Source: a virus. From it: a stretch of DNA of 64,000 bases. The DNA lies in the UHGV virus genome UHGV-0167633. One strand, given 5' to 3'. Every line of letters begins with the position of its first letter. Within the stretch, counting starts at the first letter, position 1. The position numbers are program-made. This document shows, piece by piece, positions 56,001 through 62,000 of this stretch.

Positions 56001-59000
56001 GCGAAGTGCTCAATAATGTTGAAGCAGGGGAAGAGGTTGAAATCACCCGCAGAGGCCGTGAATCAGCCGTAATTGTCAGCAAGGCCACTTTCGAAGCCTA
56101 TAAAAAAGCGGCGCTGGATGCCGAATTTGCATCCCTGTTTGACACTCTGGACTCCACTAACAAGGAACTGGTTAACCGATAATGAGGCATATATCACCGG
56201 AAGAACTTATTGCGCTTCATGATGCGAATATAAGCCGCTACGGCGGCCTGCCGGGCATGTCAGATCCGGGCAGGGCAGAAGCCATTATCGGGAGAGTTCA
56301 GGCCAGAGTTGCCTACGAAGAGATCACCGACCTTTTCGAAGTCTCCGCCACCTACCTGGTGGCTACAGCGAGAGGGCATATATTCAATGATGCCAATAAG
56401 CGTACCGCGCTAAACAGTGCGCTGTTATTTCTACGCCGTAACGGGGTGCAGGTATTTGACTCCCCTGAACTGGTAGACCTTACCGTAGGGGCTGCAACTG
56501 GTGAAATCGCCGTATCTTCAGTCGCAGAAAAGCTACGTGAACTATATGGTTCCAAGACTTGAGTAGTGGAGTTACGAAACAATGTCGAAAATTAACTTAA
56601 GAACCGAATCTGCGGTGTTCAAGAATCCTACGTTTAACGTACCCAAACAAACGCTTGATGAACTTGTGCCGATTGATAGCAGGTTTGTTATTCCTGCGGA
56701 ACTGGTCGAGAACTGCAAAGAGAAGCAAAAATCGTTAAAGGAAATATCGCCTTCTGAAATCCTCTCCCGCAGTGATGTAAGTAAGGAGGAGGTTTTAAGG
56801 GCGATATCTGCATCTACTGCTACCACGCTACGTAGATTGTATGGTTCTGCGGAGTAGATTAATGGCACGTAAATACAACAAGTTGTCCCGTGAAGCGTTA
56901 AAGATGCTTCTTGATGGCGTGAGTCGCAGCGAGGTAAAGCAATACTTGGTTGGTAAGCAAATTGGAGCCAGGACTGCTATTTCTGTGTTATGCCGTCAGG
57001 AAATGGTTGTGCTTAAACAGAGAATGCCGGGCAGCAGATAAAGCCCAATCAGTGATGAAAGGTGTGATGTGAAAGCCGTAATTACTCCCTTTGTACAAAA
57101 AGAGCTTGGCGTCGCCACATTCAAAGTGGATCAGGAAGTCAGAAAGCTGGTGGAGGCTGGCCGTAAATTTATTATGGAGCCGGTGCCGCGTGAGTTAATC
57201 GAGCACATGGACGACGGCCTCGTTGTTTCCGAGCAAACTATGGCAACAAATGAGGCGTTGCAGCCGTTTTTTAACAGCGATGAACTGTTTCGCCGTATTG
57301 GTGGAATTGACGCGCTGGTGGCGTGGTTGCGCAGGAAAGAGGGGAAATGCCAGGCCGCAGATCGTAGCTGGTGTGACAACCATATTGTCCACGCAGAACG
57401 AGACAATAGCGCGGTGTTGTTGTGCTGGCATCACGATAACCATTACCGGATGCGTAGTTTTAATGAGCTGAAAGAAACGCTGCATAATAATCGCGTTAAC
57501 TGGATACTGGATGTCGCCCGTCAGGAAATGGGGCTTTCAGATGGCCATGATTTAAGTATTCAGGAACTGTGCTGGTGGGCTTTCATGCGCGACATGATGC
57601 ACCTGATGCCGGAAGAAGTCTGCCGTATATCAATAAATAAGATTAAGGCTGCAACGCAGGATAGCGGACCTATGAAAGAGGCGGATATTCGCCCGTATGA
57701 CGATCGCGCTACAGCATATGTTCAGATGATGGAAGAACGCGCCGCGCCGATGCGTGCAAAAGTATGCCCTGTGGATGTTGACTCCGACCCTGGCATGGCG
57801 CATTTCAAAATACCAAAACTGCAATCGCTAAAATTACCTGAGTACATGGACTTTGTTGCTTCCCGTCCATGCTGTGGGTGTGGAGCTGCGGGAGCTGGCG
57901 CTCACATTACGCCTTATATCGTTCGTCATAGTCGATTATGCGCGCATGACATTTACGCAATTCCTCTGTGCCAGTCATGCCAGCGTGATATTGAGCGTGA
58001 CCGCGATAATTGGGAGAAGACGCACGGTAGGCTGGCGATGCATCAACGATTGTTCTTTGATTACGCGCTTGGAGTCGGCGCTATCACAAGTCACTCGTCG
58101 AACGTTAGATAAAATTGCTCTAATGTATTGCTATTTCTTTAATCGATGGTATTATATTCCGCGTTGATTAGTTGACATGGGCTAATCAGTAGGTGACAGG
58201 ATGTTACTTAACTGGCAGGGACGCCACTTCATGGAAATAAATCACTCACGAATAACATCGTACGAGATTGCGGATTACATGATCCGCACTAAATCTCTTC
58301 TATCCGCGAAAGAACTCGCAGCAATTCTTGAAAAGGAATACCCGCATCTGGATGTCGATAAGCGCGATGTTTATCTGCGCTTAAAGGCTATTGCTGTGTC
58401 TAAGTATTCGTCTGTTTTGATTGATGACAGTACACGCCCACGTAGATTTCAGATCCACTCTCTGAATCCTGAATTCTTTCGCCGTAGCCGCGCTCCGCGC
58501 CGGTTTGATGAAAAACTCCAGAACGAACTCTATATGACGCAGGACGAAAAGGAACGCCGGGAGCACCAGCCTTGGGTAATGGCGCGTCAACTTTTCAATA
58601 AGGTGGCCCGTCAGCACCGTCATTACGGTAATGCCACATCCGCACGTATGTGACTGCTCCCCGCCCGGTTGGGCGAGGCTTCCCACATCTCAGGCCGCAA
58701 CCGTCTGTACGACGGATTTACGCTGGCCTCCATGGGCAGAGACGACGAGTCCCGCCGCCTTTAGTTCCAGTATCCCTTTTTGCCGGATGTTGAGAGCCGC
58801 ATTGATATCGCGGTCATGCTCTGCTTCACATTCAGGGCATCGCCAGATGCGTTTATGAAGCGGCATTTCCGGCATTTTGTAACCACAACAATGGCACGTT
58901 TTCGAACTGGCAAACCACTGGTCGAGTTTTACCAGGTGAACGCCTTTTTCCGCTGCCTTGTACTCCAGCTTTGTGATGAAGCTATGCCAGCCTGCATCAC

Positions 59001-62000
59001 CTATTGCTCTTGCCAGATTGTGGTTTTTCATCATGTTGGCTGTTTTCAGCGTCTCGACAATTACCGCTTGGTTTTCGTCAACAATTGTACGAGAAAGTTT
59101 ATGTTGAAAATCAGCACGGGCATTCGCTACCCGTTCGTGTATGGCCGCAAGACGGATTCTGGCCTTTTTACGATTCGCGCTTCCCTTTTGCTTGCGGGAT
59201 AGCGCTTTTTGTTTGCGTCGCAGATTACGGCTGGCATTGATGAGATGGCGGGGATTCGCAATTTTTGCCCGGTCAGACCTGATGGCATAGTGCTCAAGTC
59301 CCATATCCACACCAGTAATCTTTTCTTCCTCCAGATACGCAGGTTTCGCTGGTGTGGGAATACCGTCTTCACAAAGGATGGATGCGTAGTATTTCCCGGT
59401 GGCACTGCGAGTGATTGTTATGCTCGTCACTTTTCCCGTCATTACACGGTGTATACGCGCTTCTATCGGTGCCAGCTTAGGAATTTTGATGGCATTCTCC
59501 AGTACTTTAATCCCGACACAATGGTAGCTCGATTGCTTCCCATGTTTACGTTTAAACGTCGGGAACCGGGCTTTCAGCTTCGGATTAAAAAAGTTGGAAA
59601 ACGCCACATCAAGATTAATCACCGCCTGTTGCAATGCCATTGAATCAAATTCTTTAAGCCAGGCATACTTACGGGACTTCTTCGCCACAGACAACAACGG
59701 TTTTAAATCTTTACGCGGACTTAAATTCACTCCGTGTCGCTGGTAAGCGTGTTTTTTGATGTGAAGAGCTTTGTTGTACGCAAAACGCACGGCGCCGAAC
59801 TGGGCGTTGAGATACTCAGCCTGTTTAGTGGTTGGATAGATGCGTACTTTTGTCGCTCTTAACATAGTCACCGCTCATTGATACAGGTTTTTATGCTAAC
59901 ACCGTAATGATTTTTTTTTAAAGCCCTGTGGGCTTTCCCGCCTTTCCTCCCCGCCCGCATTGGGCGAGGGTTCTCGGCGGTTGTTTGCTGATTGCTTGCC
60001 CGTTCCGGGCCTTTTGACATGTGACTTTCGTTACCCTCGCGTCAAAAAGAGTTTTTACGAAAGGAAGCATAAGTGACCTGGGACGATCACAAGAAGAATT
60101 TTGCTCGCCTGGCGCGAGATGGTGGTTACACCATCGCACAGTATGCCGCCGAGTTTAATCTTAACCCTAATACCGCACGTCGTTATCTCCGTGCCTTCAA
60201 AGAAGACACCAGGACTGCGGACAGCCGCAAGCCAAATAAGCCAGTCAGGAAGCCACTAAAAAGCATGATCATTGATCACTCTAATGATCAACATGCAGGT
60301 GATCATATTGCGGCTGAAATAGCGGAAAAACAGAGAGTTAATGCCGTTGTCAGTGCCGCAGTCGAGAATGCGAAGCGCCAAAATAAGCGCATAAATGATC
60401 GTTCGGATGATCATGACGTGATCAACCGCGCCCACCGGACCTTACGTGATCGCCTGGAACGCGACACCCTGGATGATGATGGTGAACGCTTTGAATTCGA
60501 AGCTGGCGATTACCTGATAGATAACGTTGAAGCGCGGAAGGCCGCGCGCGCTATGTTGCGTCGGTCCGGGGCCGATGTTCTGGAAACCACTCTTCTTGAA
60601 AAGTCTCTTTCTCATCTCCTTATGCTGGAGAACGCCAGGGATACGTGTATTCGCCTGGTGCAGGAAATGCGCGATCAGCAAAAAGACGATGATGAAGGTA
60701 CTCCGCCTGAATACCGTATCGCGAGCATGCTAAACAGCTGTTCCGCGCAGATAAGCAGTCTGATCAACACCATTTACAGCATCCGGAATAACTATCGAAA
60801 AGAAAGCCGGGAGGCGGAAAAGCACGCTTTGTCTATGGGGCAAGCTGGCATTGTTAAGCTGGCATACGAACGAAAGCGTGAAAATAACTGGTCAGTGCTG
60901 GAAGCGGCTGAATTCATCGAGGCGCATGGAGGAAAAGTGCCGCCCCTGATGCTGGAGCAAATCAAAGCCGATCTGCGTGCTCCTAAGACCAATACCGATG
61001 ATGAGGAAAACCAAACAGCATCTGGCGCTCCATCACTTGAAGATCTGGATAAAATCGCGCGAGAACGGGCCGCCAGCCGCCGCGCTGATGCGGCATTGTG
61101 GATTGAGCATCGTAGAGAAGAAATTGCCGATATCGTCGATACAGGTGGTTATGGTGATGTCGATGCGGAAGGCATATCAAACGAAGCATGGCTTGAACAG
61201 GATCTGGACGAAGACGAGGAGGAAGACGAAGAAGTTACCCGCAAACTGTACGGGGATGATGATTAATGGCCAGAAGTTGCGTAACGGACCCACGTTGGCG
61301 CGAGCTTGTGGCGCTATATCGTTATGACTGGATTGCGGCCGCTGATGTGTTGTTTGGGAAGACACCAACCTGGCAGCAGGATGAGATCATTGAGTCCACG
61401 CAGCAGGACGGCAGTTGGACAAGTGTGACCTCCGGCCATGGTACTGGTAAATCGGATATGACGAGTATCATTGCAATACTCTTCATCATGTTTTTCCCCG
61501 GCGCTCGCGTCATTCTGGTCGCTAACAAAAGACAGCAAGTCCTTGATGGTATTTTCAAATACATAAAGAGCAATTGGGCTACTGCTGTTAGCAGATTCCC
61601 GTGGTTGTCGAAGTATTTCATTCTTACAGAAACGTCTTTTTTTGAGGTGACTGGCAAGGGTGTTTGGACAATATTGATAAAGTCCTGTCGCCCCGGAAAT
61701 GAGGAGGCGTTGGCTGGTGAACACGCCGATCATCTCTTGTATATCATCGACGAAGCGTCGGGTGTGAGTGATAAAGCATTCAGTGTGATAACAGGTGCGC
61801 TGACCGGTAAGGATAACCGTATTCTGCTTCTTTCCCAGCCTACGCGACCTTCAGGCTATTTCTACGATTCACACCACAGACTAGCTATTCGCCCGGGAAA
61901 TCCTGATGGATTGTTTACTGCGATAATACTGAATAGTGAAGAATCTCCGCTTGTAGATGCAAAATTTATACGAGCAAAACTTGCGGAGTATGGCGGTCGT

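What the first reader, a model, noticed from the sequence alone, without database searches (positions are those of the whole stretch)
58625..59995. Solo TnpB (IS200/IS605 family) inserted between lpa and pacA, abutting the lpa stop codon
The TnpB has all RuvC catalytic motifs and the zinc finger intact, direct subterminal hairpins at both ends, and no tnpA. By family knowledge its guide RNA reads out of the right end into flanking DNA, here the 3' end of the late-activator gene lpa. A phage copy carrying the element could direct cleavage of co-resident sibling genomes that lack it, biasing inheritance. The insertion also separates lpa from the packaging genes and may affect late expression.
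Basis: partly seen in the sequence, partly recalled or inferred. Interest (0 to 1): 0.5.

Follow-up and report, generated by a model that had tools for sequence, protein, structure and literature searches.

The report
Guide-RNA nuclease transposon inside P1-like phage
A small, transposase-less mobile element carrying an intact RNA-guided nuclease (TnpB) sits in the last codon of a P1-like phage's late-activator gene, and its predicted guide matches relatives that lack it; the kind is known, but this copy could be tested with ordinary phage genetics.

Summary
Window 58650-59987 (minus strand) is a 1,338-bp IS200/IS605-family element with an intact tnpB and no tnpA. Empty-site comparisons fix its ends to the base.

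- **Insertion site.** It lies 3' of ATCAG, the reverse complement of C+TGA+T at the lpa stop. That places it inside lpa's last codon, and the element's last bases (GTGAC) supply a new third base and a new stop. Lpa changes only by I150M. LPpac is untouched.
- **TnpB.** It aligns full-length with ISDra2 TnpB, with the D/E/D triad and four zinc cysteines conserved. dN/dS is about 0.16.
- **Guide RNA.** The last ~110 nt fold into five helices with strong covariation across 51 relatives, which fits an omega-RNA scaffold.
- **Predicted target.** The guide (ATACGTGCGGATGTGGCATT) plus ATCAG is intact in P1, P7 and most IS-free relatives sampled (76 of 80 IMG/VR contigs).
- **Distribution.** The insertion is rare (7 of about 560 PLSDB plasmids) and lies on several flank haplotypes.

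Identity is secure. Cleavage, homing or exclusion is inferred, though there is experimental precedent in plasmids. This is a new member of a known kind, of moderate interest.

The parts
58650..59987 (-). Whole element: 1,338-bp tnpA-less IS200/IS605-family insertion sequence (LE at the high coordinate, RE at the low coordinate)
   Evidence: The gap against P1, P7 and an IS-free plasmid falls at 58650-59987. Ends are defined by independent insertions and their empty sites and by about 70 relatives whose homology stops at ...AGTCAC.
58690..59865 (-). tnpB CDS (391 aa from ATG; alternative GTG start at 59871 gives 393 aa)
   Evidence: Pfam and NCBIfam matches. phmmer against ISDra2 TnpB 8H1J gives E=8e-79 over the full length, 41.6% identity. 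D189/E273/D355 and C326/C329/C345/C348 align with ISDra2 D191/E278/D361 and C331/C334/C351/C354. dN/dS is 0.16 against the IncI1 copies.
58650..58760 (-). Predicted omega-RNA scaffold: helices 58760-54/58746-40, 58736-32/58686-82, 58728-22/58698-93, 58715-11/58705-01, and the RE hairpin 58678-71/58666-59
   Evidence: RNAalifold on 51 relatives gives 31 pairs, 19 with compensatory changes. 97.2% of cells are paired against 81.7% in shuffles and 35-54% in slid controls. The single-sequence MFE reproduces the helices, z = -2.6. No Rfam family matches.
58630..58649 (-). Predicted guide segment (5'-ATACGTGCGGATGTGGCATT-3'): the RE-flanking DNA, antisense to lpa codons 144-150
   Evidence: Its position directly 3' of the conserved RE end, plus the family rule that the guide is the RE flank (PMC10055086). 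It occurs once in the window, with no TAM-adjacent off-target.
58650..58654 (-). RE terminal pentamer GTCAC (GTGAC on +): supplies the third base of lpa codon 150 and the new TGA stop; it replaces the TAM next to the protospacer, which gives self-immunity
   Evidence: Direct reading. It is conserved as the last bases of about 70 relatives.
59866..59987 (-). Left end: 19-nt linker, TnpA-type hairpin 59949-59969, second hairpin 59920-59936 with an A-run, and the tnpB leader
   Evidence: Alignment with sibling elements, including a full copy in which tnpA lies between the LE and tnpB. Hairpin search.
59988..59992 (-). Target/TAM 5'-ATCAG-3' (CTGAT on +): the former third base of lpa codon 150, its original TGA stop and one T
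   Evidence: Empty sites ...TTTCAG|ATATGG... and ...CTTCAG|ATAATT... show that the G belongs to the flank. The four independent sites are AATCAG, AATCAG, TTTCAG and CTTCAG.
58201..58653 (+). lpa (late promoter activator), 150 aa, identical to P1 Lpa except I150M; last base of codon 150 and the stop come from the IS
   Evidence: Pfam BPP1_LPA, E=3e-57. Protein comparison with P1.
59998..60016 (+). Terminator-like hairpin GCCCG-TTC-CGGGC + CTTTTG that follows lpa directly in P1 and is now 1.34 kb downstream of it
   Evidence: Direct reading of the window and the P1/P7 empty site. Function is inferred.
60019..60037 (+). Late promoter LPpac (-22 box and -10), identical to P1, 31 bp from the IS
   Evidence: Exact match to the annotated P1 feature.
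60073..61266 (+). pacA (terminase small subunit), undisturbed
   Evidence: ORF list and P1/P7 annotation.

Best explanation
SHOWN. Window 58650-59987 is a non-autonomous (tnpA-less) IS200/IS605-family insertion sequence of the ISDra2-like TnpB clade. It inserted without a target duplication 3' of ATCAG, a motif that overlaps the lpa stop codon on the opposite strand. It carries an intact tnpB and a structurally conserved omega-RNA scaffold at its right end. INFERRED. tnpB-sense transcription runs across the RE into lpa antisense and is processed into an omega-RNA whose 16-20-nt guide is ATACGTGCGGATGTGG(CATT). TnpB-omega-RNA would then cut any P1-like genome in which ATCAG directly precedes that sequence, which is the IS-free allele found in P1, P7 and most relatives sampled. 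The resident copy is immune because the IS separates TAM from target. The break would either be repaired from the IS-bearing genome, copying the IS (non-restorative homing, which needs no TnpA), or destroy the competitor (exclusion between incompatible P1-type plasmids or co-infecting phages). Without a cognate TnpA the element can neither transpose nor excise. My estimates: identity and anatomy about 0.97; TnpB-omega-RNA active on the empty allele about 0.5; a measurable inheritance bias in nature about 0.25. The confidence given below is for the whole statement, including an active nuclease.
For: - Ends and target are defined to the base. The exact donor-joint allele exists in CP099233.1.
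- TnpB is full length, with catalytic and zinc residues conserved against ISDra2. dN/dS is 0.16 against other tnpA-less copies.
- The omega-RNA scaffold shows 19 of 31 covarying pairs and many G-U pairs that exist only on the tnpB-sense strand.
- TAM plus a 20-nt protospacer is intact in P1 (NC_005856 90420-90444) and P7. The same 52-mer spanning TAM and protospacer occurs in 76 of 80 IS-free IMG/VR contigs sampled. There is no self-target in the window.
- All four IS-bearing genomes examined share the IS and the (TGAT)1 junction but differ in flank haplotype within 120-350 bp. Against pLH10-b-1-B the IS is 4-5 times less diverged than its flanks (p = 2e-4 to 2e-3). The window changes from 2.4% divergent to 99.96% identical to P7 exactly across the IS.
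- Mechanistic precedent: PMC10055086 (TnpB cuts donor joints; TnpA and TnpB share the TAM) and bioRxiv 10.1101/2025.02.20.638934 (TnpA-independent TnpB gene drive in plasmids).
Against: - No expression or cleavage data exist for this element.
- The TnpB TAM is inferred only from insertion sites.
- The consensus scan found no sigma-70 promoter inside the IS.
- The insertion is rare: 7 of about 560 PLSDB P1-like plasmids, 1 against at least 120 IMG/VR contigs, and 0 of 21 phage records. That argues against a strong drive, or for a recent origin.
- P1 prophages are roughly single-copy, so targets are available only during co-residence or lytic growth.
- Some natural TnpBs (IS608) were inactive when tested (PMC10055086).
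- The mosaic flanks are equally expected from ordinary recombination among P1-like genomes.
Confidence: 0.54

Rival explanations
1. Passive passenger. A single old TnpA-mediated insertion was tolerated because the RE end happens to restore a stop codon. It is now inherited vertically and shuffled by ordinary homologous recombination, and TnpB-omega-RNA is not expressed or not active in this context.
For: Low frequency among P1-like genomes. All copies share one junction allele, (TGAT)1, which fits a single origin. No promoter was detected. The cognate tnpA is almost absent from E. coli: 2 of 5,426 genomes with full coverage, against tnpB-element hits in 712. IS608 TnpB was inactive in assays (PMC10055086).
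Against: The ORF, catalytic residues and omega-RNA helices are intact in every copy examined. dN/dS is 0.16 between tnpA-less lineages. The IS is significantly less diverged than its flanks between haplotypes.
Confidence: 0.37
2. Regulatory side effect is what matters. The insertion's main consequence is on P1 late-gene control. lpa transcripts now run antisense through omega-RNA and tnpB before reaching the displaced terminator, and the omega-RNA guide is perfectly complementary to the lpa mRNA 3' end. Together these could alter Lpa level or timing and uncouple Plpa read-through from pacAB.
For: Convergent lpa/tnpB geometry, and a terminator-like hairpin moved from a few bases to about 1.34 kb downstream of the lpa stop. 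The P7 annotation says Op(lpa) also controls pacA and pacB.
Against: LPpac and the Lpa protein (bar I150M) are intact. There is no evidence that antisense pairing has any effect. TnpB retains a nuclease-competent RuvC, unlike known TnpB-derived repressors.
Confidence: 0.08
3. The hairpins are unrelated REP-like repeats and the ORF is a resident phage gene, not an insertion.
For: None found.
Against: More than 550 IS-free alleles exist, including an exact donor joint. The same element with the same ends occurs in unrelated contexts: IncI1 plasmids and Photorhabdus, Vibrio and Idiomarina chromosomes.
Confidence: 0.01

Closest known systems
ISDra2 (Deinococcus radiodurans) TnpB-omega-RNA, PDB 8H1J/8EXA
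   Same: Closest solved relative: E=8e-79, full length, 41.6% identity. Same D/E/D triad and CxxC...CxxC zinc finger. The omega-RNA is encoded in the tnpB 3' end plus the RE, the guide comes from the RE flank, and a 5-nt TAM abuts the LE (PMC10055086).
   Different: The TAM here is (A/T)TCAG as inferred from insertion sites, whereas ISDra2 uses TTGAT (from my own knowledge). This copy has no tnpA. Its host is a phage-plasmid of Enterobacteriaceae. Activity is untested.
IS605/IS608 (Helicobacter pylori) and ISGst elements: peel-and-paste IS200/IS605 transposons
   Same: Subterminal hairpins in direct orientation, no inverted repeats, no target duplication, and insertion 3' of a short motif. The geometry matches IS608 (from my own knowledge): a 19-nt LE linker and a 9-nt RE linker. 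A full sibling (pGF60-C) has a Y1 tnpA divergent from tnpB, as in IS605.
   Different: The window copy lacks tnpA (1,338 bp against 1,777 bp). I could not derive the LE DNA-guide/TAM pairing rule, although the LE subterminal bases differ between the TCAG and TTAG clades.
TnpB gene drive of IS605 in plasmids (Mears et al., bioRxiv 10.1101/2025.02.20.638934); 'non-restorative homing' (review PMC13565253)
   Same: An IS-borne TnpB whose guide matches the IS-free allele of the same replicon, with spread independent of TnpA. This is the mechanism proposed here.
   Different: That work used engineered multicopy and conjugative plasmids. Here the case is a natural, low-copy phage-plasmid that also replicates lytically, and nothing has been measured.
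Free-standing phage homing endonucleases (T4 SegF/SegB; marker exclusion)
   Same: The predicted outcome is the same: cleavage of a co-infecting relative within or next to a conserved essential gene, with co-conversion of flanking markers or exclusion of the competitor (PMC13565253).
   Different: Target recognition would be RNA-guided and set by the insertion site, not protein-encoded. Self is told from non-self by presence or absence of the element.
IS609 (label used for sibling copies in some GenBank records, e.g. AP024477.1 'insQ: IS609 transposase')
   Same: Same family (IS200/IS605, TnpB-bearing).
   Different: The IS609-derived TnpB listed in the PMC12781874 supplement is only 30% identical to this protein, and its tested target carries a TTAT-type motif. 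The label is loose and this element is not IS609.

Membership tests
IS200/IS605-family insertion sequence | No terminal inverted repeats; imperfect palindromic hairpins near both ends in the same (direct) orientation | tested here: met
   CCTCGCCC-loop-GGGCGGGG at 59969-59949 and 58678-58659, both on the minus strand, and nowhere else in the window.
IS200/IS605-family insertion sequence | Insertion 3' of a specific 4-5-nt motif with no target-site duplication; the empty site equals the exact join of the flanks | tested here: met
   Two sibling insertions compared with their empty sites. The window's reconstructed joint is identical to CP099233.1. P1 and P7 differ only by one extra TGAT unit upstream of the TAM.
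IS200/IS605-family insertion sequence | Y1 (HUH) TnpA transposase encoded in the element | tested here: not met
   tblastn with the sibling's TnpA finds nothing in the 64-kb window. The 440-bp tnpA segment present in pGF60-C is absent here. The copy is therefore a non-autonomous derivative, as about 75% of tnpB loci are (PMC10055086).
TnpB (OMEGA) RNA-guided nucleases | HTH/WED-REC, split RuvC and zinc-finger TNB architecture with a D-E-D catalytic triad | tested here: met
   Pfam and NCBIfam matches. The alignment to ISDra2 TnpB has all seven key residues conserved.
TnpB (OMEGA) RNA-guided nucleases | Structured omega-RNA scaffold overlapping the tnpB 3' end and the RE | tested here: met
   Five helices and 31 pairs, 19 with compensatory changes; none of 500 shuffles reach the observed values, and slid controls collapse. 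No Rfam model matches, so this is support by covariation rather than a family hit.
TnpB (OMEGA) RNA-guided nucleases | Guide equals the RE-flanking sequence; the LE-flanking TAM plus that sequence is recreated in the IS-free allele | tested here: met
   ATCAG + ATACGTGCGGATGTGGCATT is contiguous in P1, P7 and 76 of 80 IS-free IMG/VR contigs, and is split by the IS in the window. Transcription and processing of the guide were not tested.
TnpB (OMEGA) RNA-guided nucleases | RNA-guided, TAM-dependent double-strand DNA cleavage | not testable with these tools
   Needs an interference or in vitro cleavage assay.
TldR-type nuclease-dead TnpB repressors (considered) | Loss of RuvC catalytic residues | tested here: not met
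   D189, E273 and D355 are all present. Not a TldR.
IS609 (as some records label siblings) | TnpB closely similar to the ISfinder IS609 TnpB | tested here: not met
   30% identity by BLASTP.

The most novel reading that the evidence does not exclude
The element works as a natural RNA-guided homing/exclusion device between P1-like phage-plasmids. When an IS-bearing and an IS-free P1 relative share a cell (superinfection of a lysogen, co-infection, or IncY incompatibility), TnpB-omega-RNA cuts the rival at the 3' end of its essential late-activator gene lpa. The rival is then either converted to IS-bearing, with co-conversion of the neighbouring lpa/pacA markers, or eliminated. That would be a transposase-independent gene drive operating in a virus.
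Probability: 0.25. Interest if true: 0.6.

Novelty: new member of a known kind. Interest (0 to 1): 0.35.

Why it matters
TnpB's natural role (restorative homing, and recently TnpA-independent gene drive in plasmids) has been shown mostly with engineered constructs. This is a naturally occurring, intact, tnpA-less TnpB element whose predicted target is the IS-free allele of a classical, genetically tractable phage. Exact empty-site alleles (P1, P7) are already on the shelf. That makes it directly testable whether an RNA-guided transposon nuclease biases inheritance or excludes competitors among phages. The insertion is also a neat case of an IS landing in the last codon of an essential regulator and restoring the stop from its own end. 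For annotation, it corrects the element's ends, its TAM and the loose 'IS609' label.

Tried and rejected
1. My first reading of the junction was a 5-bp deletion (CTGAT lost) with the G inside the IS. I rejected it after the empty sites of two sibling insertions showed that the G is flank. The difference from P1 is one unit of a (TGAT)n microsatellite upstream of the TAM; alleles with 1, 2 and 6 units exist.
2. NZ_CP091679.1 looked like the exact empty allele because of its length. It carries a different 4-bp deletion (TTGC unit). CP099233.1 is the true match.
3. An Rfam scan of 57500-61000 at E<=1 found nothing.
4. The sigma-70 promoter scan found no candidate inside the IS. The terminator-like hits are at chance level.
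5. I tried to derive the IS608-style LE DNA-guide/TAM pairing rule from the TCAG and TTAG clades. Two LE bases differ, but no simple register fits, so this is unresolved.
6. Literature searches for a tested TAM of this clade (TTCAG, TCAG) and for TnpB in phage-plasmids found nothing specific.
7. I rejected the 'IS609' name.
8. I checked whether IMG/VR contig L092 is the window's source. It is not identical: 99.4% over 56803-61525.

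
Full report
**What is there.** The window is collinear with phage P7 from about 41.4 kb to beyond 100 kb, so it is a P1-like phage-plasmid. lpa lies at 58201-58653 on the plus strand (Pfam BPP1_LPA) and pacA at 60073-61266. Between them, a minus-strand ORF at 58690-59871 matches HTH_OrfB_IS605, OrfB_IS605 and Cas12f1-like_TNB. It also matches NCBIfam guided_TnpB at 347 bits. All 21 P1/P7-type records in the phage collection align to both flanks but lack about 1.33 kb here.

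**Exact ends and target.**
- Sibling elements about 90% identical sit at three unrelated places. These are IncI1 plasmids between ardA and psiA, IncI1 between hok and a fitA-like gene, and plasmid pGF60-C.
- Homology to the window stops at the same bases in all of them. In element orientation (window minus strand) the element runs flank ...(A/T)TCAG | C(A/G)AA... to ...GAGCAGTCAC | flank.
- Two of these insertions have IS-free comparators...TTTCAG|ATATGG... and ...CTTCAG|ATAATT.... These prove that the G belongs to the flank, that there is no target duplication, and that insertion is 3' of (A/T)TCAG.
- The window element is therefore 58650-59987, 1,338 bp.
- The RE end ...AGTCAC, followed by unrelated DNA, recurs in about 70 relatives from Photorhabdus, Serratia, Aeromonas, Vibrio, Idiomarina and others.
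- The two hairpins (59969-59949 and 58678-58659) are direct repeats on the tnpB-sense strand and occur nowhere else in the window.

**Effect on lpa.** P1 and P7 read ...CGT ATC TGA T TGAT TGC.... The window reads ...CGT AT[G TGA C ...IS... ]C TGA T TGC.... The TAM ATCAG on the minus strand is C+TGA+T on the plus strand, so the insertion lies between the second and third bases of lpa codon 150. The RE's terminal GTGAC provides the new third base and an in-frame TGA. Lpa is identical to P1 Lpa except for I150M.

To the right of the IS the window has one TGAT unit where P1 has two. This is a slippage-prone tract: an IS-free IMG/VR contig has six units. Plasmid CP099233.1 has one unit and equals the window's reconstructed donor joint exactly. 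All four IS-bearing genomes I examined share the one-unit allele, which fits a single original insertion. The indel lies upstream of the TAM and does not touch the predicted target.

**TnpB.** phmmer against PDB sequences gives ISDra2 TnpB (8H1J, 8EXA) at E=8e-79 over residues 5-383, at 41.6% identity. D189, E273 and D355 align with D191, E278 and D361. C326, C329, C345 and C348 align with the ISDra2 zinc cysteines. Against the IncI1 copies, which also lack tnpA, dN/dS is 0.16. The protein is only 30% identical to the IS609-derived TnpB printed in the PMC12781874 supplement, so the 'IS609' label on some sibling records is loose.

**Guide-RNA scaffold.** I aligned the last 160 nt of the element from the window and 50 relatives (alignment A1).
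- RNAalifold predicts five helices with 31 pairs, of which 19 show compensatory double changes.
- On this structure 97.2% of cells pair, against 81.7% in shuffles (0 of 500 reach the observed value) and 35-54% when partners are slid by 1-3 columns.
- Frequent G-U pairs exist only on the tnpB-sense strand, which argues for an RNA of that polarity.
- The window sequence alone folds into the same helices.
- Rfam has no matching family.
- The 3'-most helix is also the TnpA-type RE hairpin, so its covariation may serve DNA recognition, RNA structure or both.

**Predicted targeting (inference from family rules; PMC10055086).** The guide would be the 16-20 nt after the RE end, ATACGTGCGGATGTGG(CATT), at window 58649 down to 58630. 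This is antisense to the last lpa codons. In P1 the TAM and protospacer are contiguous (NC_005856 90440-90444 and 90420-90439), and P7 is the same. Of 80 IS-free IMG/VR contigs fetched, 76 share the identical 52-mer spanning both. In the window the protospacer is preceded by GTCAC rather than ATCAG, and no other TAM-adjacent match exists, so the carrier should be immune.

**Autonomy.** There is no tnpA in the 64 kb. The full sibling in pGF60-C is 1,777 bp, with a Y1 tnpA divergent from tnpB. The window element lacks exactly that 440-bp segment. In 5,426 complete E. coli genomes the element's DNA is found in 712 (580 with at least 80% coverage). The cognate tnpA is found in 27, and only 2 of those have full coverage. 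TnpA-dependent excision and restorative homing can therefore rarely operate. Any TnpB benefit must come from TnpA-independent homing or exclusion, as shown experimentally for plasmids (bioRxiv 10.1101/2025.02.20.638934; review PMC13565253).

**Distribution and population signal.** The occupied site is rare.

| Collection | Occupied | IS-free at this site |
|---|---|---|
| PLSDB plasmids | 7 (4 E. albertii, 3 E. coli) | about 556 |
| IMG/VR contigs | 1 | at least 120 |
| Phage records | 0 | 21 |

Four IS-bearing genomes (the window, IMG/VR L092, pEA50_2 and pLH10-b-1-B) share the IS and its immediate flanks but diverge into different haplotypes within 120-350 bp on either side. Two of them carry a pacB allele about 17% divergent. 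Between pLH10-b-1-B and the other three, the IS differs at 0.2-0.3% and the 2.65 kb of flanks at 1.3-1.4% (Fisher p = 2e-4 to 2e-3). Relative to P7, the window is 2.4% divergent to the left of the IS and 99.96% identical for 2.7 kb to the right, so a mosaic junction coincides with the element. These patterns fit spread of the IS across pre-existing haplotypes by recombination. They do not separate TnpB-triggered homing from ordinary recombination in a highly mosaic phage group.

**Expression context.** LPpac (60019-60037) is identical to P1 and lies 31 bp from the LE, so Lpa-dependent pacAB transcription should be intact. A terminator-like hairpin follows lpa by a few bases in P1 and is now at 59998-60016, 1.34 kb downstream. 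lpa transcripts therefore probably run antisense through the omega-RNA and tnpB. This is inference. No sigma-70 consensus promoter was found inside the IS.

**Verdict.**
- The element is an ordinary kind of thing, a non-autonomous TnpB-bearing IS200/IS605 element. PGAP already annotates it as TnpB in sibling plasmids.
- Two things lift it slightly above routine. Its predicted guide targets the IS-free allele of a classical phage within an essential regulator. It also lacks tnpA, so only transposase-independent homing or exclusion could give TnpB a role.
- That role is plausible (about 0.5 for activity, about 0.25 for a real inheritance bias) but unproven.
- The main rival is a passive, tolerated insertion.

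Noticed in passing
window 59988-59997 and the P1/P7/IMG-VR empty sites (L001, L002, L093-L172, L009, L213): Just after the lpa stop lies a slippage-prone tract. (TGAT)n has 1 unit in the window, in all IS-bearing genomes examined and in CP099233.1; 2 units in P1, P7 and most others; and 6 units in one IMG/VR contig. NZ_CP091679.1 has lost one TTGC unit of the adjacent TTGCTTGC.
   Followed up: partly
window 56803-58653 versus 59989-62685: Relative to phage P7, the left flank of the IS is 2.4-3% divergent while the right flank (pacA and pacB) is 99.96% identical over 2.7 kb. A mosaic junction therefore coincides with the element.
   Followed up: partly
L010 and L011 from window-equivalent 61010 onward: The E. 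albertii and E. coli IS-bearing plasmids carry a pacA-3'/pacB allele about 17% divergent from that of the window, P1 and P7. This is a sharp allelic replacement of the terminase large subunit among otherwise close relatives.
   Followed up: no
L003/L006 (IncI1 plasmids, between ardA and psiA) and L005 (between hok and a fitA-like gene): Dozens of IncI1-type plasmids carry a 90.6%-identical tnpA-less sibling in the leading region, the first DNA to enter as a single strand during conjugation. This is notable because this IS family transposes through ssDNA.
   Followed up: no
E. coli complete genomes: tnpB-element DNA of this clade occurs in 712 of 5,426 genomes. The cognate tnpA occurs in 27, and only 2 of those have full coverage, so nearly all copies are orphaned from their transposase.
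   Followed up: partly
L012-L086 left ends: Relatives in Photorhabdus and Serratia insert after TTAG and have LE subterminal ...CCGTAAACC.... The E. coli clade inserts after TCAG and has ...CCGAGAACC.... The target motif and the putative LE DNA guide seem to have changed together, but I could not fit a simple pairing register.
   Followed up: partly
window 22061-26672, 8100-10446, 14634-16527, 53005-54791, 48779-49872 and other segments: Several multi-kb stretches have no megablast match to P7. They include the region where P7 has parAB and incA/repA, so the window may carry a different partition/replication module and other cargo.
   Followed up: no
window 56529-56823: A 295-bp segment is present in the window but absent from the IS-bearing plasmids pEA50_2 and pLH10-b-1-B. 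It overlaps the 91-aa ORF at 56582-56857, just after the doc-like gene.
   Followed up: no
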